From Octopus vulgaris (lineage: Eukaryota): DNA of 64,000 bases. A program made the position numbers and the translations under genes. The stretch covers positions 59,334,001 to 59,398,000 of the forward strand of contig OX597823.1 of the NCBI GenBank assembly GCA_951406725.2. The letters run 5' to 3'. The notes under the pieces are model-generated. The model had not been told where the DNA came from and did no database searches. It saw nothing but the letters and a program-made list of their open reading frames with translations. Shown here piece after piece: positions 16,798-61,419 of the stretch (its first letter is position 1; each line of letters begins with the position of its first letter).

Positions 16798-17103
16798 TTA
16801 ATCCTTTAGTGTTCAGCTCATTCTGACAAATGTAATGCTTATTTATTCATATTATTTTGAATTAATCATGCCTTATCTTACTCTTTACTCTTTTACTTAT
16901 TTCAGTCATTTGACTGTGGCCATGCTGCAGCACCACCTTTAGTCAAGCAAATCGACCCCAGGACTTATTCTTTGTAAGCCTAGTACTTATTCTATCGGTC
17001 TCTTTTGCCGAACTGCTAAGTTACAGAGACGTAAACACACCAGCATCGGTTGTCAAGCAATGTTGGGGAGACAAACACAGACACACAAACATATACACAC
17101 ATA

Positions 17104-17157
<54 letters not shown>

Positions 17158-17471
17158 TACAATGGGCTTCTTTCAGTTTCTGTCTGCCAAATCCACTCAC
17201 AAGGCTTTGGTCGGCCCGAGGCTATAGTAGAAGACACTTGCCCAAGGTGCTACACAGTGGGACTGAACCTGGGACCATGTGGTTGGTATGCAAGCTACTT
17301 ACCGCACAACCACTCCTACGCCTTGTAGATTTGAAATTTCAATGATGTGATTGTTTAATTTTAGAAGGACATTGGTGGGTTGGTGTGAAATGCTGGATCT
17401 AGTTGGTTTGCTTGTAAAACAAGTAGAATATTTGCGCCAGATATAGCCGGATTAAATGCTAAAATGGTTAA
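16798..17471 (+). mobile_element. TTAA/piggyBac-like MITE (family E) split by a SINE A
   Basis: Ends ttaatcctttag and ctaaaatggttaa. Other copies at 50840-51042(+) and 23008-23190(-). Confidence 0.7.
16879..17322 (-). mobile_element. SINE family A, full length, nested in a MITE
   Basis: Complete head, (TA)n and tail. Interrupts the MITE sequence at ttatct|tgtag. Confidence 0.9.
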
Positions 17472-19013: not shown

Positions 19014-19249
19014 AAGGTAGCGAGCTGGCAGAAACGTTAGCACGCCGGGCAAAATGCGTAGCCGTATTTCGTCTGCCATTACGTTCTGAATTCAAATTCC
19101 GCCAAGGTCGCCTTTGCCTTTCATCCTTTCGGGGTTGATAAATTAAGTACTAGTTACGCACTGTGGTCGATATAATTGACTTAATCCATTTGTCTGTCCT
19201 TGTTTGTCCTCTCTGTGTTTAGCCCCTTGTGGGTAGTAAAGAAATAGGT
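19014..19249 (+). mobile_element. SINE family B, well preserved
   Basis: aaggtagcgagctggcagaaacgttagcacgccgggc...ttcaaattccgcc...cctttcatcctttcggggttgataaattaagtac...agccccttgtgggtagtaaagaaatagg. CpGs retained. Confidence 0.9.
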
Positions 19250-19887
19250 ATAGATATATACCATATATTCATACAACTTGACTGTAGATACTGAGTAAAT
19301 TAATATATAGCAAAAGGTGTGGTATGTAGCTGAGAAAACAGACCATAATATCTAACTCAAGAGAGAGGATGAGTGGTGTAGAGGGAATGAGCATTGAGGA
19401 TATTAGAAACATCTGGTTCAGAGTTGCAATAATTGACTCAATGAAGCTCATGCTGTTGTGTGGGAGTTTTGTTCCTTACTCTGGTGGGTGTTCATCACTA
19501 TCTGATGAACCTTTGACTCTTACATTTGGAGATGGATAAAGTAGCATCCTCAGAACACAAATTTACCCCAAAATGTTTACCCTAAAATGTTGTTGGGCTG
19601 TGGTATGTATTGGTGAAGTACTTGCCTTTAGCATTCCTCTGATTGACAAACAATTGGAAAATAATACTATTAAATTATCATTGGAATTATAAACAATTAA
19701 TGGTGTTTGGAATTATGTTACATGACAGGTGCCAGTTAGTGTGACAAATATTTTTATCATTTTGTTCGCCACTGATACACAGTTTGAGCAGAAATCCCAA
19801 GACACTAAGAATAAAGAAAGTGACAATGATTAAACCAAGGAATTAATCCAGCATCCTAAAACTCAGCTGATTGATGGGCCAATGAGG

Positions 19888-20264: not shown

Positions 20265-20672
20265 AGGTGCAGGAGTGGCTGTGTGGCAAATAGTTTGCTT
20301 ACCAACCACATGGTTCCAGGTTCATTCCCACTGTGTGGCCCCTTGGGCAAGTGTCTTCTACTATAGCCTTAGGCCGACCAAAGCCTTGTGAGTGGATTTG
20401 GTAGACGGAACCTGAAAGAAGCCTGTCGTATATATGTATATATATATATGTGTGTGTGTGTATATATTTGTGCGTCTGTGTTTGTCCCCCCAACATCGCT
20501 TGACAACCGATGCTGGTGTGTTTACGTCCCCGTAACTTAGTGGTTCAGAAAAAAGAGACCAATAGAATAAATACTAGGCTTCCAAAGAATAAGTCCTAGG
20601 GTCGATTTGCCCGACTAAAGGCGGTGCTCCAGCATGGCCACAGTCAAATGACTGAAACAAGTAAAAGAGTTA
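20265..20672 (+). mobile_element. SINE family A, full length
   Basis: A-box tggctgtgtgg, B-box ggttcattccc, ccttgggcaagtgtctt core, internal (TA)(TG), tail gactgaaacaagtaaaagag. Confidence 0.9.
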
Positions 20673-21609
20673 AAAAATGCAATTTGCAGATCCTTCATCT
20701 CAGTATTACACAGTACCAAACATGATTATAAGTATGTATTGGCTGAATCATTGGAACATGGAACATATTGCTTTGGAATATTTGTGCAGCTCTGTATATT
20801 CTGTGTTCAAATCTTATTTAGGTCAACTTTTCCTTCAGAGGGTCAATAAAATATATTACCAGTTCAGTGTTGTAGATTGGCATTGGACACAGTACTTAAC
20901 TATGTTACTCCCATCTCTTTCTTTCTTTCTTCCTTTTTTCTTTCTTTGTTTCCTTTCCTTCCTTTTCCTTTCTTCCTTTTTCTCTCCTTGTAACTATAGG
21001 CATTGGCAATCATGGGACTCCTTGTCAAAGCCTGAATGATTAAGAAAGATACAGTAGTGGTTTACTGATGCCTTCTTTAGATTTATCTACAGTTTATTCA
21101 ACTAGTCTCCTACTTTCCTCAGCTAACTTTTGGAGCACAGAGCCTACTTAGTCCTTAGGCATGTCCACACTCTGGTGAGCCAAACACATGTCTAGGGCTC
21201 AGCATGTCCAGGACCAAACCTTCCTTCAAGCCCTCTGTACCTTAACCATAGGACCATCTTCTCCTAATTGATTAATAACTGGAGCCCTTCATGGGTACTA
21301 CCAATCCAGATCAAAGCAAAGTTAGGAATAGGTATGGATGGCCAAGTAGCTAAAACATGACAGCAGATGGGCATCCAGAAGTCATGACCTGAATGTGACC
21401 CAGCCCCTTTAAAGTGTAAGAAGTTAAGGGCCAAAACTCTCACCTGAGTGAGGTTTCTTCTCTGATAACCTTCTAATGTTTAGTTCTCTTGAGAGTTTCT
21501 AACTAGTGGTAATATATTTTCTCAGCCCCACAAGGATAAAGAGATAAATTTGACCCAAGCAGGATTTGAGCTCAAAATGTGACGAGGTATAGCTAAATAC
21601 TACAAAGTA

Positions 21610-22175
21610 TTGGGTTGTCCGGAAAGTTCGTGCTGATTTTTAAAGGAAAGGAAAAGGTCAATAAATACTTGCCATTACATTTTTAATCAACCAAATATGA
21701 ACCATTTTGTTGCACAATGCGTCTCCATCTTTTCTTTAACTTGAAAATGCCCTCTTCCTAGAATTGAGGTGGTTTCATAGCAAAGAATTCATCAAGGTAT
21801 CTTTTTATGTCATCCAAGGAATTGAAATTTTTACCATTAGCACTTTTCTGCAGAGACCTGAATAAGTGGAAATCTGAGGGAGCAATATCAGGTGAATATG
21901 GAGGGTGAGGTAACACATCCCAGCCTAGCTGCAGCAATTTTTGTCTGGTTCCCAAAGCATCAAGTGCCCAAAATGAACTTTCTTATCTTCCATTTTAAAG
22001 GGTTACAGAATTAAAACAGGTTATAGGAACATAAATATTCTTTCACGAAAAAATATCTTAAACTGTGCTCTAAATGGAGGTTTAGTCAAATCCTATTTTA
22101 TGGATTCAACCATGTTCTAAAATAAGTCAAAAGGTAAGCTACTTTAAATCGGCATGAACTTTCCGGACAACCTAA
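21610..22175 (-). mobile_element. Internally deleted mariner (566 bp), non-autonomous
   Basis: TA TSD, TIRs ttgggttgtccggaaagttcgtgc / gcatgaactttccggacaacctaa. Encodes LGWDVLPHPPYSPDIAPSDFHLFRSL. Splits an older SINE at aaagta|ttttgtccaac. Confidence 0.92.
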
Positions 22176-22798
22176 TATTTTGTCCAACACTCTCAACAAG
22201 AAAAATAATTTTAAAAACACTTATAAATATTTTAGATTGTGATTTCTATGGTTATAGTCAACACTATTTTGATGCGTTATTTCCTCTTTAAATATTTTTG
22301 TATTAAATAGTTATTTGTATTAAATATTTTTGGTGGTGGTGAAGAGATGCTGTTAGATCTCAGATATCAGATTGCTGAGGCCTCATGGATACAAACAACA
22401 AAACAGTGAGATGAATTACATCAACATGTTTGCATAACAAAATTGTTTCAAAAAAAAAAAAGTCATCAGAAAAAAAAAAAAATTATAATGTCAGTGATTA
22501 TAATAATTGCTATTGCTGTTGTAATAGTGTCAGTGATTGAAATGATAGTGAACGTGATGATGATAATGATGACGACAACGACGACAATGACGATGATGAT
22601 GATGATGATGATGATGATAAGTGCAGCATGAGCAAATTTCTGTCAATTTTAGTGTGATGTAGTTCTTTTTTTGTTTTTTTATCGGTGTAATGTAATTAAC
22701 CAATTAATTGGCTGATTGATTGATTCATTGATTATTTAAGTTATTTAAAATTCAAATAAATTTAGCTTTCAAATATTGATTTCTTATATTGATGGAAT

Positions 22799-31062: not shown

Positions 31063-31352
31063 GGTGTGTGTGCTCGTGTGTATACATGCATGTGCATGCA
31101 TGTGCTTACATGGGGATGTTTGCCTTTGCCTTTTCTTGGCATCATATTTAAAATTCTAAATGTATGTCTCCCTCTTTTGGGGTAATATGACTCTGTTCAG
31201 AAACACGAGAGAGTTGACAACAGGGTAGGCCTCAGGTTATTGGACATTTGCCTCAATAAATTCTACCAGATCAATGCTAGCACAGAAAAGTGAATACGGA
31301 AATGATAATGAAGAGGATGATATTACATGGTACTGATGTCGATAAATGTATA

Positions 31353-31582
31353 TTAACCCTTTTGATACCAACCCGGTTGAAACCACCTCTGGCTCTGTAG
31401 TACAAATGTCTTGTTGTCATAAATTTTGAATTAAAATCTCCCACTAAACCTTAGTCAAATTTTCCATTCCTAACACTAGCTTAATGATAACTAAGTTATT
31501 TTACTAAATTCTTTGTTATGTTTCAATTTATTTGAAAGAAACAGAGAGCATCTCAAAATAAATATGGTAACAAAAGAGTTAA
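31353..31582 (-). mobile_element. TTAA/piggyBac-like MITE (family D, ~230 bp)
   Basis: ttaa|cccttttgatacc ... ggtaacaaaagag|ttaa. Confidence 0.85.
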
Positions 31583-31765
31583 CAAACATTTCTTGATACA
31601 GAACTCCATATCAGGAGTACAATGGATCGTATGAAATGTGTTGACGAAAACCTCAAGTTTCAATTGTCAAGAGGCTTACTGATGTACATTTGCTGGATTC
31701 ATTCCTTTATGAATTTTATTATGGTCAACACTGCTTGTCAACCCACAGTTGGATTCATAATGACT

Positions 31766-33090: not shown

Positions 33091-33660
33091 GTGCAGGCAT
33101 GCCTGTGTGGCAAGGAGATTGCATCCCGACCACATGGTCCCGGGTTCAGTCCCACTGCATGGAACATTGGGCATGTGTCTTCTACTATCGCCTTGGGCCA
33201 ACCAAAGCCTTGTGAGTGGATGTGGTTGACGAAACCTGAAAGAAGTCCATCTTACACACACACACACACACGCATATATATAAGTTAATTAGGGGATATA
33301 TTAATCTCATAAAGGGACGATTACATCCAAGAAAGCACTGGTTTTATACCTTATATCTTTAGGAAACAAAATTTCCCTAAATCAATAGGTATGTATTAAG
33401 CATATAATCCGTATTGGATTAAGGAAATGGAGAGTTACTTGTTGATAATTATTTATTAAATAATTATTAACCACTAACTTTCCATTTCCTTCTCTTAATT
33501 TAAATATGGATTATGTGTGTGTATGTGTGTGTGTGAGTGTGTGTGTGTAAGTATGTATGTATGTATTATTTATGTGTGCATGTCTGTGTTATTCGGCCCC
33601 TCCCCCCACCATCGCTTGACAACCAATGTTTGTGTGTTTATGTCTTAGTAACTTAGTAGA
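33091..33660 (+). mobile_element. SINE family A with a palindromic insertion in its internal microsatellite
   Basis: Head 33091-33250, partial tail to ~33660, insert 33280-33517. Confidence 0.75.
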
Positions 33661-33684: not shown

Positions 33685-34015
33685 CACTGTGGATCCTTGC
33701 AACTTCCACCCACTGTCATGCCATCATAGTGCTGGCTGCCTTCCATGCCATACCACACTTAACAAGATCATAAAGCAAAGCCTAGATACTGCAGGCTTCT
33801 CTTCCCAGCTTAAGCCAGTGGAGCTAGACTGAGGGGATGGTAAAAGGCCAGACTGTAGGACAATTTCCCTGTTCCCTGGCAAAAGGCCACACAACCTCCA
33901 TCTGAGATGTCACATGCTGTGAGATCTTCTCTAGTGGCAACTTAGTGTTGTCAGTTACCAGCTCACTCTCCAACGCTCATCAGGCTGAGAAAAGCAAGCC
34001 GTCAAGATATTAGTC
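33685..34015 (+). pseudogene. CRE-like non-LTR retrotransposon remnant (zinc knuckle plus restriction-like endonuclease)
   Basis: HPLSCHHSAGCLPCHTTLNKIIKQSLDTAGFSSQLKPVELD*GDGKRPD fits the CRE-type HxxSC..G..RH..LN..I...L..A....EP.GL...DGKRPD pattern. Confidence 0.75.
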
Positions 34016-34099
34016 ACCCTCTGACTAATAGCCCACTACAGCTACATGGGATGGTGTACATGCAGTTTTTGGTCATATTCTTTTCTGTTTTACCCAAAG

Positions 34100-34450
34100 G
34101 GGAATATGACCAAAACTGCATGTACTCCATCCCATGCAGCTGTGGTGGGCAATACAAAGGCAAAACATTGCCACCCACTCAAAATAAGGGTAGAGGAACA
34201 TCGCAAAGCTGTGACACAAGGAGATATTGATAAATTGGGTATATATGATCATGTATGGAAAAATGGAGACCACTTCCCCCTGTGGGATGAAGTTAAAATA
34301 ATAGAGGGAGAACACCACTGGAAAATACGAAAACTAAAAGAAGCAGCACATATGCTAGGACACAACAACCTCCTAAGCAGAATGAGTGCAGATATGAGCA
34401 GCATATGGGAACCGGTATTAAGGAAGGATAGAAGAATATTAGATTTATAA
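34100..34450 (+). pseudogene. Penelope-like GIY-YIG endonuclease remnant
   Basis: NCMYSIPCSCGGQYKGKT (from 34114), then a +1 frameshift into CHPLKIRVEEHRKAV...DHVWKNGDHFPLWDEVKII..EHHWKIRKLKEAAHM...LS. Confidence 0.88.
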
Positions 34451-34479
34451 GCCCTAAAATTCACTCCATAATTGCCCAT

Positions 34480-34552
34480 GTGCATATGGCGTAGTGGTTA
34501 ACACCACAGGCTACTAACCCCAAGATTCCAAGTTTGATTCCAGGCAGTGACC
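34480..34552 (+). promoter_or_regulatory. tRNA-like segment (A/B boxes) inside the PLE 3' region
   Basis: A-box tggcgtagtgg, anticodon-like loop ctactaa, B-box gtttgattcc, ~73 nt. Acceptor stem is poor, so not a functional tRNA. Second copy at 52661-52732. Confidence 0.7.
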
Positions 34553-34620
34553 TGAATAATAATAATAATAAAATCGAAAAATGCCTTAGGAATGAGAACC
34601 CAGGTTCAAAATTTTCCCAA

Positions 34621-34666
34621 GATACCTAATGAAGGCTGGAGGGTATATCAGCCGAAACATTGTGTT
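34621..34666 (+). ncRNA. Minimal hammerhead motif (core G5A variant)
   Basis: gatac-CTaATGA-a-GGCTG gagggtatat CAGCC-GAAA-caTT-gtgtt. Confidence 0.7.
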
Positions 34667-37145
34667 AACAACAAACAATATGAAGACAAATATCCGTCAA
34701 ATATAAATAATATAAATAATGTATATAATTCCTCATCTCTTTAAATATAGAACACGTTGTACTACACTTTAATAGTTTTCCTCTGAAGCAGCTGGAGATA
34801 CGATAGTTTGACCAAAAGAACTAGCTATTGCAAGGAAAATAAAATATTCATTTCTAATCAAGGCACAAAGCCAGAAATTTTTAGGGGAGGGTGCTAGTCG
34901 ATTAGATCGACCCCAGTATGCAACCAGTACTTAATTTATTGACCCTGAAAAGATGAAAGGCAAAGTCGATCTCAGCGGAATTTGAACTCAGAATGTAAAG
35001 ACAGATGAAATAACACCAAGCATTTTGCCCAGCGTGCTAACATTTCTGCCAGCTCACCGCCTTAAGAAAAATTAAATATTAAACAACAAATGCATTTGGT
35101 CAAACCTAGACATAAGACTGTTTAACATAACAGCAACAAATTCAAAACTGGTTCATTTAGAAATTTAAACTTCAAAGCACTACATTATAAGAGAATTAGT
35201 CTTGTTCTTATGATGTGCTTTCATCTTCCCTTATTGTACAATAATATCATGACAAAATAAATAACTGGGCTCTATAGGGTTAAGAATTAAATAAAATTAA
35301 CCATCTATGATGGAGTATAATATAAAGATAAATTACATATATGTGTGTGTGTGTGAGTGTGCGCGTGTCTTTATTAATAGTGAAGGAGATTATATATGTT
35401 TGATCTAACTTTTTTGTTTCCATTTTGAATTTGTTATTAAAATAGAAGATACTTTTGAATATATCTCAATTTAATTGTTTCCTTCTTAAAGTGAAGTGAA
35501 AATTTTAGTATAAGAAAAACGTGAAGGACCTTTTCTTTAAGAATGGCATTCAATGTTTATTGTTATATCAATTCCAAAACACTTATATATAATTTGCTAT
35601 ATTTTAGCTTAAACTTTGTTTTATTTATTTAATTTTTTTTTCTGTAATATATATCATACTCTAATGATGAAAGATAATAGCCTCTCAACTGTATTTAAAG
35701 ATAAATCCTCAAATCCTATAAAATTACACCATATGAGAATGTTTCCCTACTTGTGATGTCAAGTGTAGACACTGCAGTGTCTGATATGACTTGAAGAATC
35801 TCTTGTTATTCTAATTTGTCAAACTAGTAAAAGTTGGCAATTATCTCTGAGTTGTTGATAGTTGATTGTGCTTTCAGAATCATTTCAAATATAGATTGAT
35901 GTAAGTTAGATTAGTGTGACTGTAATTCAGATTATAACATTTGGGAGTTACTTTGGTACTCAGGATATTAGTAGGCAGTGATACAATCCAAAGATAGTTG
36001 ATTGTAGATAAATTTCTCTGAGAAATGCAATTACGCGTACTGCATTGATCTTGTGTGAGAAGAAATTTATGGGCTTTTCTGATCAGAGCTACTTCACAAT
36101 GTTTGATGTAATGAGATTTATAATTGCTGATATGAGACAAAGATTAGCTGTGATAAATTAAAAGCAGATTTGCAGAAGTCAATACCTAAATCTTTTATAT
36201 ATTGGTACTTCACTTAATGTATTTCAACTGCTATTTACTGCAAACTATTAGTTGCCAATATTAACTGTTCCCTTTCAATAGAATTTCTTGAAGCATATAA
36301 TTTAGAAGATTATTCTGTTAAACAAACTCACTAACAAAACAACTCATTACTAGTGAGTTAATACTAATGTCGGAGCTTCTTAACTTTCAGATGTAATAAC
36401 GATATCTTCCAGTTTGTAAATTACAATCATGACTTTGTATTCTGATAGTTTAAGCATGTGAATTAAGATAATTATTACATTCAATATTATCCTGGGGATG
36501 AAATTTAATTGGGTAACCACTGGCCAGTAGATTTCTCAGATCTTGAGCAGGTTTGTTCTGTTGTTCTATTCAATCCTTAAATTAATCAATATTTATATAT
36601 CTCACGTACGTATGTTTGCAGAGGTGGAACAAATCCACCTCTGACATTAATTTCAAGAACACAATAACTGGGAGCTTAAGGTGCTAAACCGCTGGTTATA
36701 TGATTATGAGTTCTAAACTCGTTAATAGTACACATCTCTGGTTGACATCAGAAATCAAATAATAAAACAACTTTCCAGAGAAACTAGTATTGATTCTATA
36801 CCAGAAGTTTTTTTGTAAAGTTTGCAGATTTCTATAAATTCATACGCTACAGAAAGACGAGCGCAGTAATGATTCAAGAAAAGATGACTCATTTTTAAAG
36901 TTTATGATTGTATCGAGTGTTTGCAGTGTGTATCCCAGTTTTAGAATAGATGTACTGTATTGCTGCATGTCATAAGAGACAACTAAAAAAGTTGGCACAT
37001 GGGAGGGATTCGATCATAAAATTCTGCATCAGAGAAACTGTTTAAACCATACCAGAATGGAAAAGCAGATGTGAAACGTTGAAGATGATGATGGTGAGTG
37101 GTGATACTGAGCATACAGATTTCTGTGTATATAAAATCATATGAT

Positions 37146-37450
37146 AGAGGTACAATGGCCCAGTGGTTAGGGCAGCGGACTCACGGTCGGAGGATCGCAG
37201 TTTCGATTCTCAGACTGGGTGTTGTGTGTGTTTATTGTGTGAAAACACCTAAAGCTCCACAAGGCTCCGGCAGGGGATGGTGGCAACCCCTGTTGTACTC
37301 TCTCACCCCAACTTTCTCTCACTCTTTCTTCCTGTTTCTTGAGTAACGCTGCGATGGATTGGCGTCCCGTCCAGCTGGGGGGAACACATACGCCATAGAA
37401 ACTGGGAAATCAAGCTCATGAGCCTGGCTAGGCTTGAAAAGAGCGCATAA
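37146..37450 (+). mobile_element. tRNA-derived SINE
   Basis: A-box tggcccagtgg, B-box gtttcgattc. The 3' part gctgcgatgga.tggcgtcccgtccagctgggg...gagcctggctaggctt is shared with 46519. Confidence 0.85.
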
Positions 37451-38356
37451 ATAAAAAAAATTAAAAAATCATATGCTCAGTACTAAAGTAAACATTTAAA
37501 AAATGTTCCCCCTTCTTCTTTCTGTTACTCTTCTTCCCTCTCTCTCTCTCTCCCTCTATCTCTCTTTCTTTGATGAAGAACTTCACTCAAAATGTCGATG
37601 CTCATGTCACCCCATGGCATACAAACTGAACTTAACATTTGATATGTAAAAGTTTCTTTTCCCTGCATTACAATCACAGAGTGAGAAATTGGTCATAAAC
37701 TTAGGGTTGCAAGCATTCTGACCATGAGAAATTTTGGTACCCTTACAAAAGAATTAACAGCAAAGTCAACCTCAGTGGAATTTGAATTTACTACATAAAG
37801 ATGGACAAAATGCCACTAAGTGTTTTGCTCAGCATGCCAATGATTCTACCAGTTCACCGCCTTCAGGTACAGTAAAATATTGCTATCACTATGTGAAAGA
37901 AATAAGCTTCAAAGATACTTTCAAGAGTAAGCTAGTAACCACTGGATTGATTTATTTTTGGTTCTATAGAAACTATAATGGTGGTCAGCAGAGGAGTACT
38001 AATTTGATGAAGATGGTTGTAAAGGGAAGTAAGCTGCTTGTAAGCTATATATTTCCACCTAGGTGAACTGAGCCAATAGAAAGAAAGTGACTAAGGCATA
38101 AATATAGAATGATGAGACATGGACAGATGACATTCTATTTATTCAGTCAGTTCCAGTATAATTATCTTTCATTGTCCAAGGAAATACTTAATGAGGAAGG
38201 GATGTTTAAAAGGAGTGAAACCCTTTTAAATGATTATCTTCCAGGTAGTTTTTCATTAAAGCCATTTTAACTGTTCAAGCATTATTTTTTACAGTTAGAG
38301 ATGACACTTTATCAAAGTGCGGAGACATATTTTTCTAATGAACATCACAGTATAGT

Positions 38357-38825
38357 AGGTTGATGAGCTGGCAAAATCGTTAGCATGCTGGGCAAAATGC
38401 TTAGCAGTATTTGGCTGCCGTTACATTCAGAGTTCAAATTCCACTAAGGTCGACTTTGCCTTTCATCCTTTCAGGGTCGATTAAATAAGTATCTATTTCT
38501 GTACTACCCACAAGGGGCTAAACACAGAGAAGACAAACAAGGACAGACAAAGTCGATTATATCGACCCCAGTGTTTCACTGGTACTTAATTTATCGACCC
38601 CAAAAGGATGAAAAGCAAAGTCGACCTTGGTGGAATTTGAACTCACAACGTAGCGGCAGATGAAATACCGCTAAGCATTTTGCCCCGTGTGCTAACGATT
38701 CTGCCAGCTCGCTGCCTTAAATAAGTACCAGTTACACACTGGGGTTGATGTAATCGACTTAATCCCTTTGTCTGTCCTTGTTGTCCCCTCTATGTTTAGC
38801 CCCCTGTGGACAATAATGAAATAAA
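38357..38825 (+). mobile_element. SINE B containing an inverted SINE B (38492-38716)
   Basis: 11-bp TSD ttaaataagta at 38481-38491 and 38717-38727. Confidence 0.9.
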
Positions 38826-40084: not shown

Positions 40085-40318
40085 TAACCTCGCCTTCGCC
40101 ATCGTCATCATCATCATCATCACTGTTTTAATATTCACTTTTCCATGCTTGCATGAATTAGACTGAGTTCATTGAGGTTGGTTTTCTAAAGTGATCCCCT
40201 GATCCTGCTTATAGCTATTATGTTGTGGAATAGATCCCCTGTAAAGGCATCGGAGTCTAGGTTTGAATTTTTTGAGCACTACTAAGTGTCTTGTCTTATG
40301 TACTTAGAATCATCTGTG

Positions 40319-40353
<35 letters not shown>

Positions 40354-40358
<5 letters not shown>

Positions 40359-40862
40359 AACTGTGTACAGTTGTGGAAATTAGCTGCCCAGTAGATGCTA
40401 ACATAAATATGAAGATCAGTGAAAAAGAGAATAGCTATGCTGAACTACTGAGAAATCTGCAGTTACTCTATCCAGAGTACAAGTTCAGGTTTATACCTGC
40501 AATTATTGGTGCCGTGGGATATGTAACACACTGCCTAAATATCAACCTTGAGACATTAGACTTTTCAAAACCAGAATGGAGAAAGCTAATTTGAAGATTA
40601 CAGATCCAATCCATCACTGGAATTGTAAAAATATGTAAAACTTTCCAGAAGTTTATCATTCAAATATATATGAGCAGGTCTAGATATGCCACTATATGCA
40701 TTAAAATACATACATTAAAACAAAGCATATAAATCTGCATATATACATACATACAAAAATATCCTGTTTGATGTTGTTGAAATTCTTATAAAAGAGCTGT
40801 GGATCAGGTTAGAAACCAGCTCTTTCTCTATTGGCAAGAAGTCTTGAAATAAAACTGAATAA
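40354..40862 (+). mobile_element. 3' end of an R4/Dong-like RLE retrotransposon
   Basis: EKLCTVVEISCPVDANINMKISEKENSYAELLRNLQLLYPEYKFRFIPAIIGAVG...LI*RLQIQSITGIVKICKTF. The 3' UTR ends aataaaactgaataa then (CATA)n. A related 3' tip lies at ~44922-45003. Confidence 0.85.
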
Positions 40863-45268: not shown

Positions 45269-46518
45269 CACAAACATATTTATATATATATATGTACACG
45301 TACACATATACACACACACATATTAATTTTCTATTTTTTACTTTTTTGTCTGTAAACTTTCTTTTGGACCACTAACTCTAAGGATGTAATTTAAGAACAG
45401 TACAAGAATCCTCAACCTTTCACTTCAGTATTCTTTTTTATCAATAAAAAGCTGCACTTCATAAGTAGTGCCAGAGTTTGGCATCATCTCTTTAGGTGTA
45501 TATAACTGAAAGGTTAAGAAGAAGCTTGATATTTTCTAACATTTTGGTAAATATATTTAAGTTGTTAAGGACGTTAACACAACAAGACTGTGAAATAGTA
45601 AAAGGTGGATAGTGGCAATGAAAAGATTTGTTAATGTGGAGAGCTAACAAAAGTTGGTATTATTGTTCAAAGCTTTCATTATATATATATCAGAATACAA
45701 CAACAATGGCAACGATATGAAAACAGCAGCAACAACCACAGAAACAACAACAGCAACTGTAATAATAATGATAAGTATGATTGCAACAACAATATCAATA
45801 ATCATGATATGACTGGTAACACTTAGAAACGTAGAGTATTTGTTTGAAAAGAGTAAAATTTAAATGTCTTATCTCTAGTATATTGTCATCTAAGTTTGAG
45901 CAAATGAAATGGACTTCGTTTTGACATTTCTCATATTATTTCTGTCTTACAGTCAATGCTGTGAGATTTCCTTTAATGAAACACACACAACTGACTCAAG
46001 TAGACCAATACAAGAGATGTGGATAAATAAATACAGGGAGTTGGGCTTATTTATTCTTATTTTTATAAAAAATACTTGAAAAAGGACTTTTTAAAGAGTT
46101 TGGAAAAAAACATATTTAAAATGAAAAATAAAGTGATATACAGTTTACCAATAAATATACATGTACTGTTTGGAGATCGCTTCTTATTTTTTAATTAATT
46201 AACCAATAAATTTGCATGCATGCATACATATATACTTAGGTATTTACGTATGCATGCACACACACACACACACACTCATGCACCCTACTTCTCTCTTGTT
46301 CAGTTACCTGCCATCATTTATATTGTATTTTAGAATTTGGTTATCTTTTGTGTTAATCAGCAATGATTTCTAAATCAAAACTGAACCACGAGTGCAACTA
46401 GGATCTGTAATTTCAGAGCTTAAGTAGACACTTCCATATATAAAGCAGTATGCTACACCTCCAATACTAATACTAATACGGAAATGGATAAGTTTAAACA
46501 GATTATATATTCGAAATT

Positions 46519-46768
46519 GTGGAGGCGCATGGCTTAGTGGTTAGGGTGTCAGCAGCATGATCGTAAGATTGTGGTTTCGATTCCTGGACCGGGCAACGCA
46601 TTGTGTTCTAGAGCAAATCACTTCATTTCACATTGCTCCACTCCACTCAGCTGGCAAAAATGAGTAATGCTGCAATGGACTGGCGTCCCATTCAGCTGGG
46701 GAACACATACACCATAGAAACCGGGAAACCAGGCCCATGAGCCTGGCTAGGCTTTAAAAGGGGGCATT
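46519..46768 (+). mobile_element. tRNA-derived SINE, chimeric relative to 37146 and 61420
   Basis: A-box tggcttagtgg, B-box gtttcgattcc. Body shared with 61420, tail shared with 37146. Confidence 0.85.
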
Positions 46769-47170
46769 TATTATTTTTTTATATTTGGAATTAATGCTCT
46801 AAATATGTAATATACCAAAGAATTAGTCTAACTTTCAAGATACCAAAACGTTGCAATTTCGTTGACCTGTGATATAAATATATCACATAGAAGATGTAAA
46901 ATATATTAGACGTGAAAAAAATACAGAGGAAATTTGCAGTTGATTGTTGTCTTTGAATGATTTTATGTAAGAAATTCATACCATTTCCTGTTCTAATGCT
47001 GCCATTAATAACAGAGGAAAATATCCAAATATATCTTTTATCCTCAACCCCACCCATCTTTTGATTCTTTTCCTTTTTTTATAATTTTTTTTATATGTTC
47101 CTATTAGCATTTTGGGGAATAAATGATATCTTATTTTTATTTAACAGTATAAAATAGGTGTATGTGTGCT

Positions 47171-47216
<46 letters not shown>

Positions 47217-47607
47217 AAAGAAGGGGAAAAGTGAATAATAAAATCATATTTAAATTATACATCTTATTGATTTTCACTCTGAAATTCTTTTCAGTGTATG
47301 ATTTTATTTCATTGTTATTCACAGCTAGGTAATCTTTTATTAGAGAAGTATGATATCTAAATTATAAATAATAAATACAAATATATAAATAATAAATATA
47401 AACAAATAAATAATAGATATAAAGCATGGCTGTGTGGTAAGAAGCTTGCTTCCCAACCACATGGCTCCGTGTTCAGTCCCACCGTGTGTAAACTTGGGCA
47501 AGTGTCTTCTACTATAGCCCTGCACAGACCCAAGCTTTCTGAGTGGATTTGGTAGACTGAAACTGAAAGAAGCCTGTCATATATATATATATATATATAC
47601 ATATACT

Positions 47608-48008
47608 TTCTACTTGTTTCAGTCATTTGACTGCAGCCATGCTGGAGCACAACCTTTAGTCTGTGCTCCAGCCTTTAGAGCACATCAACCCCAGGACTTA
47701 TTTTTTAGAAGCCTAGTACTTATTCTATCGGTCTCTTTTGCTGAACTGCTAGGTTACTGGGACGTAAACACACCAGCATCGATTGTCGAGCGATGCTGGG
47801 GGACAAACAAAGACACACAAACATATTCACACATATATATATATATATATATATATAGATATATACGACAGACGTCTTTCAGTTTCCATCTACCAAATCC
47901 ACACAGAAGGCTTTGGTCGGCCGGAGGCTATAGTAGAAGACACTTGCCCAAGGTGCCGCGCAGTGGAAATGAACCTGGAACCATGTGGTTGGTAAGCAAG
48001 CTTCTTAC

Positions 48009-48010
<2 letters not shown>
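47608..48010 (-). mobile_element. SINE family A, full length, within a SINE cluster spanning 47424-48262
   Basis: Flanked by a + strand head (47424-47580) and a + strand tail (48045-48262). Confidence 0.85.
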
Positions 48011-48039
<29 letters not shown>

Positions 48040-48318
48040 GTATGTATGCATGTATTCGTATTTGCCCCCTGCACCACTTGACAACTCGTGCTAGTGTGTT
48101 TATGTCCCTGCAACTAAGCAGTTTGGCAAAAGAGACTGATAGAATAAGTATTACGCTTTAAAAAAATAAGTTTGGGACTGATTTCTTTGACTAAAATACT
48201 TTGAGGTGGTACCCCAGCATGGCTGTAGTCAAATGACTGAAACAAGTAAAAGATAAAAGATAATTAAATACACAATAAATATAAAAAAATAAATAAACAA
48301 TTGCTTATTGTATTAATA

Positions 48319-48885
48319 TTGTGTTGTCAGGAAAGTTCATGCTGATTTATAGTAGCTTACCTTTCGACTTATTTTAGAACATGGTTGAGTCCATAAAATA
48401 GGATTTGACTACACCGCTATTTAGAGCACAGTTTAAGCTATCTTTTCATGGAAGAAGGTTCATGTTCCTATAACCTGAGTTAATTTTGTAACCCTTTAAA
48501 ATGGAAGATAAGAAAGTTCATTTTCAGCACTTGATGCTTTGGGAACCAGACAAAAGTTGCTGCAGCTCGGCTGGTATGTGTTACCCCACCCTCAATATTC
48601 CCCAGATATTACTCCTTTGGATTTCCACTTATTCAGGTCTCTGCAGGATAGTCTTAATGGTAAAAAATTTCAATTCCTTGGATGATGTAAAAAGAAACCT
48701 TGATGAATTCTTTGCCATGAAACCACCTCAATTCTGGAAAGAGGGTATTTTCAAGTTAAAGGAAAGATGGAGATGCATTGTGCAACAAAATGGTTCATAT
48801 TTCGTTGATTAAAAATGTAATGACAAGTATTTATTGACCTTTTTCTTTCCTTTAAAAATCAGCACGAACTTTCTGGACGACCCAA
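48319..48885 (+). mobile_element. Internally deleted mariner (567 bp), same derivative as 21610
   Basis: TA TSD and TIRs. MEDKKVHFQHLML is joined to the C-terminal ...NFNSLDDVKRNLDEFFAMKPPQFWKEGIFKLKERWRCIVQQNGSYFVD*. Confidence 0.92.
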
Positions 48886-50056
48886 TAGTTTTTTAACAAT
48901 AAGCACAGACATCTGTTCAAAGAAGTTCTTCAGAAATTAAATTGTTCACCATGCTGGGGTACCACTTCAAAGTATTTTAGTCAAACATATCAGTCCCAGA
49001 CTTATTTTTTTAAAGCCTAATACTTATTCTATCAGTCTCTTTTGCCAAACTGCTTAGTTGCAGGGACATAAACACACTAGCACGAGTTGTCAAGTGGTGG
49101 AGGGAGAAAATACGAAGACATGCATACATACATATATATGTGTGTGTGTGTGTGTGTGGTAAGTAGCTTGCTTACCAACCACATGGTTCCAGGTTCACTG
49201 CAAGCAAAGTTCAACATCATCAATTCACCATTTTTCTTTATTTTCAATAAAATAGTTTTTAACTATTAAAGGTGAAATACTATAGATAAATTTACTAAAT
49301 TCTTTGCTATATTTAAAATTAATTGAAAGAAACACAGAGCATCTCAACAGAAATATGGTAACAAAAGGGTTAATAGGAAAAGATCAACGAAAAAAACTTT
49401 GAAAGTAAATCAAAATCATGTGATCTGGCATTTTGGCAGTTGTAGCAGATAGTTCTCTGCCAACGATATAAATAAAAGTGGTTTTATGCACCACAAGTCC
49501 ATATGAGAGGCCCTCTCAAGGTAAATAATGCAGTACTTTGTGTACTAAGATAACTACCACGTTAGTTTGGAGATAAATTTTACCTTCTGGTGTTCACATT
49601 GCTTTTGTCACAATTATTTTTTAATGCCAGATAATTTTCTTTCACACCTCTAAAAATTATGCCATTGCTTATAATAACACACATATATATATACATATAT
49701 ATGAAAGGCTTTCACACAGTTTCTTTCAACCAGTTATACTCACAGGACAATAGTCATTCTAGGACTATAGCAGCAGACGCCCAAGGTGCTGCAGAGTAGG
49801 ACTGAACCTGAATCACATAGTTGTGAAGCAAGTTTCTTAACCATACAGTCATACCTGTGCCTAGGTAGTGAAAATAAATAAACAAACAGACAAATAAATC
49901 AAACAAACAAACAATCAAATAAATAAAGGAATCAATTTATCTTTAGTTATTTATTAAATAAAAATTGTAACAAGTTATTTTTATTGATTGTGTAAATATA
50001 GCGAAAACTTAGCTATTTCATTATGAATCAAAGTTTTTTTCATAGATCTTTTCCTA

Positions 50057-50283
50057 TTAACCTTTTTGTTACCATATTTCTGTTGAGATTCTCAGTGTTT
50101 CTTTCAATTAATTTTAAATATAACAAAGAATTTAGTAAAATAACTTAGTTATCATTAAGCTAGTGTTAGGAACATAAATTTTGATTAAGGTTTGGTGGAA
50201 GATTTTAATTCAGAACTTGTAAAAACAAGACATTTATACTACAGAGCCAGAGTTTTCAGCCAGATTGGTATCAAAAGGGTTAA
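50057..50283 (+). mobile_element. TTAA MITE family D
   Basis: ttaacctttttgttacc ... ggtatcaaaagggttaa. Confidence 0.85.
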
Positions 50284-50522
50284 ATTATTCATTATTCTGC
50301 ATTTTTCTAAACATGGCCAAAAAAGAAATGTGTCAATCCCTCAGTTTATCACAAATACCAGAGAAATGATACAATGAAGTCCTCATTGTTTTATCAGAAA
50401 ACTGGCTGTCATCTAGACTTTGAGAATGAGATGAAATTTCTTTTTATAATATTTATATTTATCTAATATTTATCTAAATATTTTGGGGCAGCTATTTATG
50501 ATATGATGATGTCTCCCTCACT

Positions 50523-50820: not shown

Positions 50821-51740
50821 TGATTTGATATAATCGATATAGTCAAATGCAATGCTTACTTATTCACATTGTTTTGAATTAATCATGCATTATCTTGTAG
50901 CTTTGACATTTCTAAGATGTGATTGTTTATTTTTAGCATGACATTATAGGATAGGTGAAAAAGACCAGATCTGGCCAGTTTAAACATGAAACAAGTAGAA
51001 TGATTAAGCCAAATATGACTGATTTAAATGCTAGAAGGTTAGAGATTTCTTAATCCTTTTTATACCAATCATCCTGAAACCAGCTCTAATAACCACCCCT
51101 AACAATCACCCTAAATTCTTATTTCTTTATTGCCCACAAGGTGCTAAACATAGAGGGGACAAACAAGGACAGACAAAGGGCTCAAGTCAATTATATCGAC
51201 CCCAGTGCGCAACTGGTACTTAATTTATCGACCCTGAAAAGATGAAAGGCAAAGTCAACCTCAGCAGCATTTGAACTCAGAACTTAGAGACAGACGAAAT
51301 ACTGCTAAGCATTTCTCGCCCAGCATGCTAATGTTTCTGCCAGTTCACCCCAAATTCTATGAAATAAACTTTCCATTCGAAGTCATGATAGTAATGTGGA
51401 AGTATGGGCTGCAACTGCCCATCGTTGTATCCACCATTTATTGCATACAACAATGTGCAAAGGATGCATTTGCACCACTCAGGCAACATTCTGCCAACAC
51501 ATGGGTTTGTTTGGGTAGTCATTGCTGGTGAGAGTTTTACTAGGTTCCAGTGCAAATCCTACTTCAACCTCTTTTAGATGCCTTTTACAAAATACTGAGG
51601 AAATATTGGGTTTATTCTTTGACACACAGGTTCCCACACAGCACTTGAGAAATACAAAATGAAGTATTTTGCACAAGAACATAACACACTGCCTGATTCA
51701 GGAATCGGCTCTATGACCAGACAATCATGAATGTAATACT

Positions 51741-51969
51741 TTAACCCTTTTGTTACTATATTTCTGTTGAGATGCTCCGTGCTTCTTTCAATTAATTTTA
51801 AATATAACAAAGAATTTAGTAAAATAACTTAGTTATCATTCAGCTAGTGTTAGGAACATAAATTGTGACTAAGGTTTGGTGGAAGATTTTAAGTCAGAAC
51901 TTATGAAAACAAGACATTTGTACTCAGAGCCAGAGCCGGTTTCAGCCGGGCTGGTAACGAAAGGGTTAA
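51741..51969 (+). mobile_element. TTAA MITE family D, best-preserved copy
   Basis: ttaa|cccttttgttac ... gtaacgaaaggg|ttaa. Confidence 0.9.
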
Positions 51970-52558
51970 ATTGGTCAAAATTATAATATCTTTCCTCGAA
52001 ATTCCATCTTAATTAATGTGCAAAATACCAGTATAAAAGTGACAAGATTATTTTGGTAAGTTCTTCCGTTTCAAAAATCATTGAAACAATGGCTGTATAT
52101 ATGAACAGAAATATAGCAAGAAACAAGTAAAGTTTTTTCATTTGGAGAATATAAGCTGGCCTCTAACCAAGTGGAAAGACATTTTTGTTCTAGTTAGGAC
52201 AGATGGTGTTGCTAGTGGCAGGGATCTGTGGTCATTCAGATCAGTTAATCTGTTGGTGTTTGTGCAGGGATAACTTATATTTGTGTGATAGATATGTTTC
52301 ACTTCAGTATGTAAGTATCTGTGCTTCACAAATGTATGTGCATGTATGTGTGTGTGTGTGTGTGTGAGTGTGCTTGTGCATACGTGTGTGTGTGTGAGTG
52401 TGCTTGTGCATACGTGTGTGTGTGCGTGTGTGTGTGTAAATTAATTTACACTGAGGTGTAAACAATAATACTGTTCTATATTTAAGAGATGAGGAATTAT
52501 GTACGTTATTTACATTACTTATATTTGATGGATATTTGTCCTCATCTTGTTAGCTGTT

Positions 52559-52604
52559 AACACAAAGTTTCCGCTGATATACCCTCCAGCCTTCATCAAG
52601 TGTC
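52559..52604 (-). ncRNA. Minimal hammerhead motif, antisense copy
   Basis: gacac-tTGATGA-a-GGCTG gagggtatat CAGCg-GAAA-ctTT-gtgtt. Confidence 0.65.
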
Positions 52605-52764
52605 TTGGGGAAATTTCGAATGTGGGTTCTCATTCATAAGGTATTTTTTTATATGTCCACAGGCATATGGTGTAGTGGTTAAGAGCATGGCTACCAACCC
52701 CAAGATTCCGAGTTTGATTCCAAGCAGTGACCTGAACAACAACAACAACAACAACAACAATAAC

Positions 52765-52817
<53 letters not shown>

Positions 52818-52888
52818 TAATAATAAGAATAATAGTAACATCGAAAAATACCTTAGGAATGAGAACCCAGGTTCGAAATTTCCCCCAA

Positions 52889-52934
52889 GACACCTGATGA
52901 AGGCTGGAAGGTATATCAACTAAAACGTTGTGTT
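52889..52934 (+). ncRNA. Minimal hammerhead motif
   Basis: gacac-CTGATGA-a-GGCTG gaaggtatat CAaCt-aAAA-CGTT-gtgtt. First box intact, GAAA mutated. Confidence 0.65.
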
Positions 52935-53145
52935 AACAACAAACAAGATGAGGGCAAATATCTGTCAAATGTAAATAATGTAAATAATACTGTTGTCAAT
53001 TCTCCTGTCAACAAATCATCTGCTGGCTCTGCACTTTCAATGAGAGTGGAACAAGAGGTCCCTTAATGGAAAAAACAGCTAAAGTTTAGCGACAAGAAAG
53101 GCATCCAGCTGTAAACAATGACTCGATAATATATATCTAATATAT

Positions 53146-53550
53146 AGGCACAGGAGTGGCTGTGTGGTAAGTAGCTTGCTTACCAACCACATGGTTCCGG
53201 GTTCAGTCCCACTGTGTGGCACCTTGGGCAAGTGTTTTCTACTATAGCCTCGGGCCGACCAAAGCCTTGTGAGCGGATTCGGTAGACGGAAACTGAAAGA
53301 AGCCCGTCGTATATATGTATATATATGTATATATATGTGCGTGTGTGTTTGTGTGTTTGTGTTTGTCCCCCTAGCATTGCTTGACAACTGATGCTGGTGT
53401 GTTTATGTCCCCGTCACTTAGCGGTTCGGCAAAAGAGACTGATAGAATAAGTACTGGGCTTACAAAGAATAAGTCCCACGGTCGAGTTGCTCGATTAAAG
53501 GAGGTGGCGCTCCAGCATGGCCGCAGTCAAATGACTGAAACAAGTAAAAG
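53146..53550 (+). mobile_element. SINE family A, best-preserved copy
   Basis: ggcacaggagtggctgtgtggtaag (A-box), ggttcagtccc (B-box), ccttgggcaagtg (CORE-like), internal microsatellite, tail plus (AAAG)n. Confidence 0.92.
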
Positions 53551-53917
53551 AAAGAAAGAAAGAAAGAAAGAATATCTGTCAAACCATGTAAAATGAGCAA
53601 ATATGTGTTTGAGTGTGCAAGAGAAGGAGAGAGACATTATCTTATTCTATCTAACCTATGCTATTAGGAGTTGAAAAGAGATATGAACATGCTGAGACTT
53701 AATATTTCCCTGTTCACAGCAGTGATGTTAAGATATATGAAATGATTTAGTTCATATCATTTATTGTAGAGCCCTCAGGAAATTTGTCAGTACAGCAAAA
53801 TCTCAAATTGTAAAATGTACTTTCCATTTAAAATTTGTTTGGAGTGAGTTTGTGGCCAGTGATGTGTTCACTAGTATGTTGAGCAAGCTGTTCAACTACA
53901 TTACTGGTTTAGTCATT

Positions 53918-61286: not shown

Positions 61287-61419
61287 GAAGAATCCAGAAA
61301 TTGTCTAAATAATTAACCTGCCTTAATATTTGTTTAAATATGATACTTTTCCATGCCTACTCAGGTTACAATACAGTAATACTACTTTCTTTGTCACTCA
61401 CTACTTTGGTAGTGAAATT

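What the first reader, a model, noticed from the sequence alone, without database searches (positions are those of the whole stretch)
34100..34753. Parent element: GIY-YIG ORF end followed within ~30 bp by a tRNA-like segment and a hammerhead
Seen: the stop codon at 34450 is followed by tgcccatgtgcatatggcgtagtgg. The 52.6 kb copy has the same flank (tgtccacaggcatatggtgtagtgg). The tRNA-like piece is therefore an integral part of the PLE 3' repeat, not an independent SINE insertion at each locus. Inference: in tandem PLE arrays the upstream repeat supplies the promoter, so this may be a captured Pol III-type promoter driving or regulating a Penelope element.
Basis: partly seen in the sequence, partly recalled or inferred. 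Interest (0 to 1): 0.7.

Follow-up and report, generated by a model that had tools for sequence, protein, structure and literature searches.

The report
Penelope retroelement with built-in tRNA head
In what is likely an octopus, a high-copy Penelope-like jumping gene carries a tRNA-like promoter motif as a fixed part of its terminal repeat, between one unit's stop codon and the next unit's likely start codon, so that repeat would likely double as a self-transcribed short mobile element (a SINE) copied by the parent's own enzymes.

Summary
A 5'-truncated Penelope-like element (PLE) ends its endonuclease ORF at 34450. A tRNA-like head follows 29 nt later (34480-34552, A and B boxes), then (AAT)n, a minimal hammerhead and the PLE tail.

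Public runs settle the point instead. Diverged copies in three organisms read through the ORF-head junction, and depth does not dip there.

New here: an ATG at 34592 opens a frame through the hammerhead and tail that matches the N-terminus of a full-length relative. The head therefore fills half of a 141-nt stop-to-start spacer. Depth steps up 2.2-3.2-fold at the head. The ORF-less 52.6-kb copy has PLE insertion marks.

Best reading: a once-captured tRNA/SINE head likely lets Pol III make short terminal-repeat RNAs that the PLE copies in trans. Pol III driving the mRNA is less likely and untested.

Analogues are Helenus/Cassandra and Sm-alpha. Nine literature searches found no PLE case; Repbase, Dfam and the octopus OK/OR1/OR2 SINEs were not checkable. 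This scan earlier noted non-coding tRNA-bearing PLE-type units in other genomes; none of those notes describes this ORF-plus-hammerhead form.

The parts
34028..34088 (-). Inverted 5' arm of the insertion (mirror of about 34093-34153); truncation with inversion as described for PLEs
   Evidence: Self-BLAST 34028-34153 against itself reversed, 82%, E 1e-28; printed
34093..34450 (+). 3' end of the PLE ORF: C-terminal GIY-YIG endonuclease, broken by a one-base insertion at 34168/9; stop TAA 34448-34450
   Evidence: 69% identical to RT-bearing P0001, E 1.8e-33; alignments; endonuclease part of relative P0012 nearest to GIY-YIG clusters at 0.95; insertion absent in 268 of 394 RNA reads at 34169
34451..34479 (+). 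29-nt spacer between stop and head; its last 7-9 nt are shared with the 52.6-kb copy (possible Pol III leader)
   Evidence: bridged by diverged contigs
34480..34552 (+). tRNA-like head: A box 34487-34497, B box 34532-34540, 45 nt start to start; not a scorable cloverleaf
   Evidence: negative ARAGORN and Rfam; B-box C at 34535 in 1857 of 2135 RNA reads
34555..34571 (+). (AAT)n microsatellite, variable in length (about 100 nt in the 52.6-kb copy); looks like the tail of a retroposed tRNA/SINE
   Evidence: loose ends at 34555 and 34571
34592..34754 (+). Likely first 54 codons of the next unit's ORF, starting at ATG 34592 and running through hammerhead and tail
   Evidence: Aligns with residues 18-62 of full-length relative P0032; scores 71 and 67, 0 of 2000 shuffles; BLASTP E 2e-4; best of 44 long relatives, next score 38
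34621..34666 (+). Minimal type I hammerhead: stem I 34621-25/34662-66, core 34626-32, extra A 34633, stem II 34634-39/34648-53, GAAA 34654-57, predicted cut after 34661; this copy has G5 changed to A
   Evidence: majority G at 34628 in 2544 of 2834 RNA reads; features as in PMC4209133
34721..34754 (+). 34-nt optional PLE 'tail' and 3' end of the element
   Evidence: Present on one arm only of the 52.6-kb copy; RNA depth 3574, 2239, 612 over 34670-34759 and loose ends behind 34711, 34720, 34741
52472..52648 (-). Second copy, inverted arm: ATG (52633), hammerhead and tail; no head
   Evidence: 88% to 34577-34754
52651..52988 (+). Second copy, direct arm: starts about 10 nt before the head, then long (AAC/AAT)n and hammerhead, ends without the tail; no ORF body
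52464..52994 (.). 12-bp direct repeat flanking the second copy (52464-52475 and 52983-52994), partly overlapping the arm ends: target-site duplication
   Evidence: Occurs at exactly these two places on the + strand of the window

Best explanation
This is the 3' end of a high-copy Penelope-like retrotransposon family whose terminal repeat carries a fixed tRNA-like head, likely captured once from a retroposed tRNA or SINE, and that head likely lets RNA polymerase III make short repeat RNAs that the element's own enzymes would copy into the genome as SINE-like offspring. Shown: the order stop, 29 nt, head, (AAT)n, ATG, hammerhead, tail; its presence across diverged copies in three organisms; an ORF-less copy with PLE insertion marks that begins about 10 nt before the head; and a depth step at the head. 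Inferred: (1) single capture in a master copy; (2) Pol III start just upstream of the A box, read-through to the tail and stop at the first T-run in the flank; (3) that RNA holds the ORF-start region and tail which the anole Poseidon protein uses as binding and priming site in vitro, so it would be a template in trans; (4) the 2.4-kb mRNA is probably still made by Pol II or by read-through from host genes. My confidence is about 0.9 that the head is integral to the family and about 0.5 for the whole mechanism.
For: Junction: 6 of 24 listed pieces bridge it with 31 or more letters on each side (2 in X1, 1 in X3, 3 in X8; 81-86% identity), and none of the 24 leaves the alignment within 34450-34480 into unlike DNA. 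The only listed joint that skips the whole head from ORF to hammerhead side is one contig each in X1 and X3 at depth 50-57 (15 of 254 joints shown). Junction/ORF depth is 0.87, 0.82, 0.89 in DNA and 1074 against 847 in RNA. The hammerhead and tail encode the ORF start, so they are this clade's pLTR, as in PMC11167929. Head/ORF depth is 2.19, 3.23, 2.41 (DNA) and 2.53 (RNA), after a flat ORF plateau of 770-925 over 240 nt. X8 lists 79 contigs with mixed flanks (agreement 0.42) before 34482. The 52.6-kb copy starts at a Pol III-like offset and has an inverted arm, a one-sided tail and a 12-bp duplication. The single T4 run in the window copy is T3 in the majority (C at 34615 in 2117 of 2432 RNA reads). 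Precedent for tRNA heads inside LTRs: Helenus.
Against: No Pol III transcript was shown. The one RNA run is a 150-nt paired cDNA library with both mate directions about equal (0.43-0.51 from 34130 on) and 71% of reads running on into unlike DNA, which fits copies embedded in host transcripts. It shows no pile-up of starts or ends (tables 1, 2, 6). No position near the head start is among the six strongest loose ends in X23, X1 or X3, so 5' ends there are spread out or few. The depth step may partly reflect ORF copies lost at the 80% cut-off (6036 of 10103 RNA reads are under 90% alike), or ordinary partial-tandem repeats, and depth rises again at the hammerhead (4.2-6.9-fold). Two listed pieces stop 7-14 nt inside the head and run on unaligned for 90 and 153 letters; three others do the same inside the ORF. 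The lack of T4 runs is not beyond chance (P = 0.28). The tool warns that summed contig depth is no copy number. No full-length or tandem copy was seen at DNA level.
Confidence: 0.5

Rival explanations
1. Passenger: a tRNA pseudogene or simple SINE landed once in the master copy's spacer and hitchhiked without function; the short copies are ordinary 5' truncations and partial tandems.
For: The head is followed by a microsatellite like a retroposed tail, and resident SINE heads of the same build are common in the window. The cloverleaf is not scorable. PLEs are known for heavy 5' truncation (PMC8557442). No RNA start peak.
Against: Flat ORF plateau followed by a 2.2-3.2-fold step at the head; mixed flanks just before the head in X8; the B box is intact in the majority; the head occupies half of a very short spacer.
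Confidence: 0.27
2. One reading: in tandems the A/B boxes are the element's promoter, and Pol III (or TFIIIC-assisted initiation) makes the full ORF RNA, uncapped.
For: The likely ATG lies 40 nt after the head and the whole spacer is 141 nt. PLE promoters lie in the pLTR (PMC2377424). Only one T4 run lies in 34093-34754, and it is copy-specific.
Against: Full-length relatives are 768-847 aa, far beyond the 100-1300 nt of known Pol III-promoter retroelements (PMC10886601). The D. virilis promoter is LINE-like. Poor translation of uncapped Pol III RNA is from my own knowledge.
Confidence: 0.12
3. Reverse history: a free SINE first took the PLE's 3' repeat as its tail, and a template switch or recombination later put the head back into an ORF-bearing master. 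The anatomy is the same; the free SINE is the older and larger family and might be a named octopus SINE (OK, OR1, OR2).
For: Head-bearing copies outnumber ORF-bearing ones about 2-3 to 1. Three tRNA-derived octopus retroposons were named in 1994 (title only).
Against: OR2 is listed as a CORE SINE, and no such body lies between this head and the (AAT)n. The junction is gap-free in 3 of the 6 bridging pieces. No direct evidence on the order of events.
Confidence: 0.09
4. Local accident: a SINE inserted next to a PLE fragment at this locus only.
For: The flank shared by the two window copies is only 7 nt.
Against: Diverged bridging copies in three organisms, no dip in depth at the junction, and hammerhead and tail coding for the same clade's ORF start.
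Confidence: 0.02

Closest known systems
Penelope/Poseidon-clade PLEs (anole PAc, PMC11167929; minimal hammerheads in pLTRs, PMC4209133; structure summary PMC8557442)
   Same: RT plus C-terminal GIY-YIG, 5' truncation with inverted arm, 30-40-nt one-sided tail, minimal type I hammerhead overlapping the ORF start.
   Different: A tRNA-like head and microsatellite sit in the stop-to-start spacer. None of the parts of those papers that I read mentions this; in PMC8557442 'tRNA' occurs once, for selenocysteine.
Helenus, Ajax and Cassandra ('TRIMp3', PMC10886601)
   Same: A small-RNA-derived Pol III promoter inside a terminal repeat, proposed to arise by SINE insertion into the repeat; boxes kept, tRNA fold lost.
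   Different: Those are short non-coding LTR elements, and the paper argues autonomous partners must use Pol II and would not share the repeat. Here the head is in the repeat of an ORF-bearing element of another class, beside a hammerhead.
Schistosoma Sm-alpha / Sj-alpha (as summarised in PMC6765202 and PMC2770079; original papers not read)
   Same: tRNA-related Pol III promoter followed by a hammerhead in a SINE-like repeat.
   Different: Sm-alpha is non-coding, often tandem, with a canonical hammerhead and no partner ORF named in the passages read. Here the hammerhead is minimal and the unit is physically part of a PLE.
Animal non-LTR retrozymes (PMC7229834; bioRxiv 10.64898/2026.07.22.740005)
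   Same: Short hammerhead-bearing, non-coding derivatives of PLE pLTRs, moved by PLE enzymes.
   Different: Retrozymes are tandem and make circles. The preprint's main text has no 'tRNA', 'promoter' or 'Pol III'. The window copy is a monomer with an inverted arm and has a promoter-like head.
tRNA-derived SINEs, including octopus OK/OR1/OR2 (Ohshima and Okada 1994; title only)
   Same: A and B boxes in the same register as resident SINE heads, short leader, simple-repeat stretch, about 275 nt from head to end.
   Different: The 3' part is a PLE pLTR with inverted-arm insertions rather than a LINE tail, and the same head is also in the ORF-bearing parent. Identity with a named octopus SINE could not be tested.

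Membership tests
EN+ Penelope-like element (Penelope/Poseidon type) | PLE-type RT in one ORF with the endonuclease | tested here: met
   Met in relatives, not in this truncated copy: P0001 (69% to the window peptide) and its full-length cluster member P0012 carry PF00078; weak PDB hits include telomerase RT, E 0.02-0.04
EN+ Penelope-like element (Penelope/Poseidon type) | C-terminal GIY-YIG endonuclease | tested here: met
   ESM Atlas features 0.95, 10 of 10 top family hits GIY-YIG, family on 11-31% of members, query P0012 690-806; Pfam only weak, E 0.23 on P0032 and none on the window peptide; fold prediction failed
EN+ Penelope-like element (Penelope/Poseidon type) | 5' truncation, inverted 5' arm, one-sided 30-40-nt tail | tested here: met
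   Both window insertions have inverted arms; 34-nt tail on one arm only at 52.6 kb
EN+ Penelope-like element (Penelope/Poseidon type) | Minimal type I hammerhead in the pLTR | tested here: met
   Core, extra base between 9 and 10.1, G10.1-C11.1 and palindromic 15.2-16.2 in the majority letters (definition); no covariation with only three copies; cleavage not tested
EN+ Penelope-like element (Penelope/Poseidon type) | Partial-tandem full-length copies (pLTR-ORF-pLTR) | not testable with these tools
   No genome held; no loci from other collections; only indirect support from the ORF-start match
tRNA-derived SINE | Type 2 Pol III promoter (A and B boxes at tRNA spacing) | tested here: met
   (2 of 5000 shuffles)
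tRNA-derived SINE | Homology to an identifiable tRNA | tested here: inconclusive
   ARAGORN and Rfam negative; similarity to other SINE heads only; no host tRNA set available
tRNA-derived SINE | A population of copies starting at the head, independent of the ORF | tested here: inconclusive
   Depth step and X8 loose ends for; no sharp start pile-up and cut-off bias against; one such copy in the window
tRNA-derived SINE | Transcribed by Pol III | not testable with these tools
   The only RNA run laid is an apparently unstranded cDNA library
tRNA-derived SINE | LINE-derived 3' end and LINE-type insertion | tested here: not met
   The 3' end is the PLE ORF start with hammerhead and tail and the insertion is PLE-type
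Non-LTR retrozyme | Tandem hammerhead-bearing units giving circular RNA | tested here: not met
   Window copies are single or inverted, not head-to-tail; tandems elsewhere in the genome and circles not testable
TRIMp3 (Helenus) | Two LTRs with PBS and PPT, 4-5-bp TSD, non-coding | tested here: not met
   No paired direct LTRs; 12-bp duplication; joined to a PLE ORF
Octopus OK / OR1 / OR2 SINEs | Sequence identity to the published consensus | not testable with these tools
   Paper not held; no Repbase, Dfam or SINEBase; the O. vulgaris supplement has no OR1 or hammerhead entry

The most novel reading that the evidence does not exclude
An autonomous Penelope-like element whose terminal repeat is itself a working SINE. 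The captured A/B boxes are under selection and are the element's promoter, giving both short trans-mobilised RNAs and, in tandems, the ORF RNA. The short RNAs could supply the second minimal hammerhead that cuts the start codon off the mRNA. It would be the coding parent type that explains tRNA-bearing PLE-type non-coding repeats in other animals.
Probability: 0.15. Interest if true: 0.8.

Novelty: new variant of a known kind. Interest (0 to 1): 0.52.

Why it matters
SINEs are normally paired with LINEs. Non-autonomous partners of PLEs are known as promoter-less retrozymes, and Pol III heads in terminal repeats are known only from short non-coding LTR elements. Here a tRNA head, a hammerhead and the coding parent are on one molecule in a very abundant family. 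That shows a direct route by which a PLE can spawn a SINE. It also makes two open questions testable on a 300-nt construct: what promoter PLEs outside Drosophila use, and what the minimal hammerhead does. In practice, part of the 'unclassified SINE' and 'Penelope' fractions in octopus annotations may be one family.

Tried and rejected

An exact hammerhead 28-mer found 0 loci in GTDB, viral and metagenome contigs. Protein-guided locus searches found 0 confirmed of 101, 30 and 59 candidates. No flanking DNA of relatives was obtained, so head-less sister families could not be looked for.

tRNA detection: ARAGORN gave none at default and none on the two excerpts down to -ps50. At -ps70 on the whole window it gave 201 noise hits, none on the head's own coordinates. 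Rfam gave no tRNA or hammerhead match up to E 10; the whole-window scan listed only microsatellite-type hits among 150 of 161 rows shown. Folding energies of head and hammerhead excerpts were not better than shuffles (z 0.53 to -0.67). The parent tRNA was not assigned; by recall the head resembles class I tRNAs such as Arg or Thr, but this was not tested.

AlphaFold on a 4-row alignment gave pLDDT 34.5 and was discarded; no fold search was run. A search with the 49-aa N-terminal peptide found 0 of 3 candidates. A hammerhead-frame peptide motif was in only 3 of 44 long relatives, convincingly only in P0032; most of these gene calls start further downstream. Absence of T4 runs is not significant. 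No RNA holder was on record in the run list.

An intron in the tail region was considered from GT/AG letters. It was dropped because the frame is open through it and matches P0032/P0012.

Papers not held: Ohshima and Okada 1994 and Albertin 2015. Scan notes by place and by sequence gave nothing relevant.
Full report
1. What is in the sequence. The window is repeat-rich animal DNA. The nearest named protein relative is from Octopus sinensis (P0004, 81% identical over half the query), so the host is likely an octopus; no genome is held. The insertion spans 34028-34754. It opens with an inverted arm (34028-34088 mirrors about 34093-34153). It continues with the 3' 358 nt of an ORF ending in TAA at 34450, broken by a one-base insertion at 34168/9 that 268 of 394 RNA reads lack at 34169. 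The peptide is 69% identical to P0001, which carries an RT domain. Full-length cluster members are 768-806 aa. The endonuclease region of P0012 falls nearest to GIY-YIG clusters (0.95), while Pfam sees GIY-YIG only weakly (E 0.23 on P0032). P0001 has 40,459 relatives at E 0.001 or better. This is a canonical RT-then-GIY-YIG PLE; 'Poseidon type' rests on architecture, not on a tree.

2. The head. A box 34487-34497 and B box 34532-34540 define a tRNA-like stretch at 34480-34552. My A+B pattern was written after seeing the sequence. It hit 2 of 5000 shuffles of the 160 nt after the stop, and 8 places in the window against 1.2 in 30 shuffles. Three of the other places (37156, 46530, 61430) are heads of a resident SINE-like family with the same 45-nt spacing. 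The head is 35-41 of 73 identical to them, also outside the boxes (p 0.03, 0.0008, 0.003). ARAGORN and Rfam do not call it, so 'tRNA-derived' is an inference and the parent tRNA is unassigned. An (AAT)n run follows.

3. The hammerhead. 34621-34666 has a 5-bp stem I, a 6-bp stem II, an extra base after position 9 and a two-base palindrome in place of stem III. These are the features given for metazoan PLE minimal hammerheads (PMC4209133, Results and Discussion read). In three window copies 34 of 36 stem cells pair, against 19-49% when the partners are slid; there is no covariation and the shuffle control is uninformative with three rows. Each copy has a core change. Majority letters in all four runs restore G5 (2544 of 2834 RNA reads) and the G at 34659 (2280 of 3381).

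4. Is the head part of the family? Resident SINE heads also have a short leader, so that argument is not enough. I laid 4 of the 24 listed runs on 33950-34820 at 80% likeness: DNA contigs of organisms A, B and D, and raw RNA reads of D. They laid 32,323, 32,332 and 24,708 contigs and 10,103 reads. Of 24 listed pieces (the longest of more than 90,000), 6 bridge ORF end and head with 31 or more letters on each side, at 81-86% identity, in all three DNA runs. Three more cross the stop and spacer and end 7-14 nt into the head; two of these run on unaligned, as do three pieces inside the ORF. The other 15 end within the ORF or at 34452. None leaves within 34450-34480 into unlike DNA. Depth in the junction bin is 0.82-0.89 of the ORF plateau in DNA and 1074 against 847 in RNA. 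Among 15 of 254 joints shown, the one that skips the whole head (34421 to 34577) has one contig each in two runs at depth 50-57. So the head is a fixed part of the ORF-bearing family. Relatives more than 20% diverged are invisible to this test.

5. Where the head sits. An ATG at 34592 opens a frame through hammerhead and tail. It aligns with residues 18-62 of the full-length relative P0032 (scores 71 and 67 for two window copies, 0 of 2000 shuffles each; BLASTP E 2e-4). P0032 is the best of 44 long relatives, the next scoring 38. The match to P0012 is limited to its last 11 residues and is not significant alone (485 of 2000). So hammerhead and tail are likely the first codons of the next unit. 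In anole Poseidon the ORF also begins in the hammerhead and the tail marks the two RT start sites (PMC11167929, parts 1-2 of 4 read). The stop-to-start spacer is 141 nt, 73 of them tRNA-like, and the predicted cut lies 70 nt after the ATG.

6. ORF-less copies. The 52.6-kb copy is an inverted arm with tail (52472-52648) joined to a direct arm without tail (52651-52988), within a 12-bp duplication. Inverted arms and a one-sided 30-40-nt tail are the PLE insertion signature (PMC8557442, passages). The direct arm starts about 10 nt before the head. Across runs, depth is flat along the ORF (RNA 770-925 over 240 nt), then 2.2-3.2-fold higher on the head and 4.2-6.9-fold on the hammerhead. X8 lists 79 contigs with mixed flanks before 34482. 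Against a sharp start: no pile-up of read ends, and no head-start position among the six strongest loose ends in the other three runs. ORF copies may also be lost at the cut-off, and summed depth is no copy number. The RNA reads come equally from both directions and 71% run on into unlike DNA. They look like copies inside host transcripts and say nothing on Pol III.

7. Mechanism. Shown: the anatomy, its fixation in the family, and a PLE-type insertion that begins at the head. Inferred: a retroposed tRNA or SINE with an (AAT)n tail entered a master copy's spacer once. Its boxes likely let Pol III start just upstream and read the 275 nt to the tail; the one T4 run is T3 in the majority, though T-run scarcity is within chance. 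Such an RNA holds 163 nt of ORF start plus tail, close to the 172 nt that PAc needs in vitro, so it would be copied in trans. I give this 0.5, a functionless passenger 0.27, Pol III making the mRNA 0.12, SINE first 0.09 and a local accident 0.02. Pol III for the mRNA is disfavoured by the ORF length, by the short lengths of known Pol III-promoter elements (PMC10886601, part 1 of 6, passages and sections 4.1-4.2) and by the LINE-like promoter of D. virilis Penelope (PMC2377424, abstract and Discussion).

8. Comparison with what is known. It is a member of the EN+ PLEs on every feature testable here. It works like Helenus/Cassandra (Pol III head in a terminal repeat) and like Schistosoma Sm-alpha (Pol III promoter plus hammerhead; seen only as passages in PMC6765202 and PMC2770079), but fails their defining features. 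Retrozymes are PLE-derived but, in the text searched, promoter-less (bioRxiv 10.64898/2026.07.22.740005, part 1 of 5 and term search, supplements not seen; PMC7229834 and PMC7761336, passages). Nine full-text searches gave no report of a tRNA head in a PLE pLTR. The library lacks most subscription journals. The 1994 octopus SINE paper was seen as a title only (PMC4758252, passages). The 2026 O. vulgaris annotation (PMC13282606, part 1 of 3, passages and supplement search) gives PLEs 6.83% of the genome in 190 families and does not mention ribozymes; its repeat library was not seen and may hold this family. PMC8967140 (passages) adds only that SINEs and Penelope are abundant in octopus. Earlier notes of this scan describe non-coding, ribozyme-free tRNA-bearing units with PLE-type insertions in other animals; I did not check them and treat them as leads.

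9. Verdict. It is a new variant of a known kind as far as the accessible literature goes. Function is inferred, the family is old and decayed, and prior deposit in Repbase or Dfam cannot be excluded. Interest 0.52.

Noticed in passing
window 37139-37460, 46513-46770, 61413-61580, 808-922 (-): A resident SINE-like family whose heads have the same A/B register as the PLE head (35-41 of 73 identical); a candidate relative of the captured head, but with a different body.
   Followed up: partly
window 20265-20670, 53146-53551, 16884-17323, 47424-48014, 33094-33254 and others: The most abundant repeat in the window, about 400 nt with a tRNA-like start; by recall it has a CORE-type motif and may be one of the named octopus SINEs.
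   Followed up: no
window 34896-35065 (-), 2103-2340, 19014-19251, 38490-38720, 51120-51349: A third SINE-like family directly downstream of the finding; by recall its body resembles the Meta domain.
   Followed up: no
run X23 laid on window 34131: 319 RNA reads share one uniform loose end (agreement 0.99) before 34131: probably one well-expressed host transcript in organism D that has taken up a piece of this PLE's ORF end.
   Followed up: no
window 8894-9881 (-) and 48492-48812 (+): Broken frames that by recall look like Tc1/mariner transposase pieces.
   Followed up: no
window 40286-40594 (+): Short frame that by recall resembles the restriction-like endonuclease end of an R4/Dong-type non-LTR element.
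   Followed up: no
window 21604-22179 and 48315-48891: A 577-nt repeat pair in opposite orientation, 91% identical, not matching the SINE families above.
   Followed up: no
window 31344-31585, 50057-50293, 51741-51970, 58102-58348, 49291-49402: A family of about 240 nt, 83-95% identical between copies, possibly a MITE.
   Followed up: no
protein P0032 residues 1-62: A related full-length PLE protein (55% to P0012) whose N-terminus reads through a hammerhead in the same frame as the window's repeat; its DNA would show whether that sister family has a tRNA head.
   Followed up: partly
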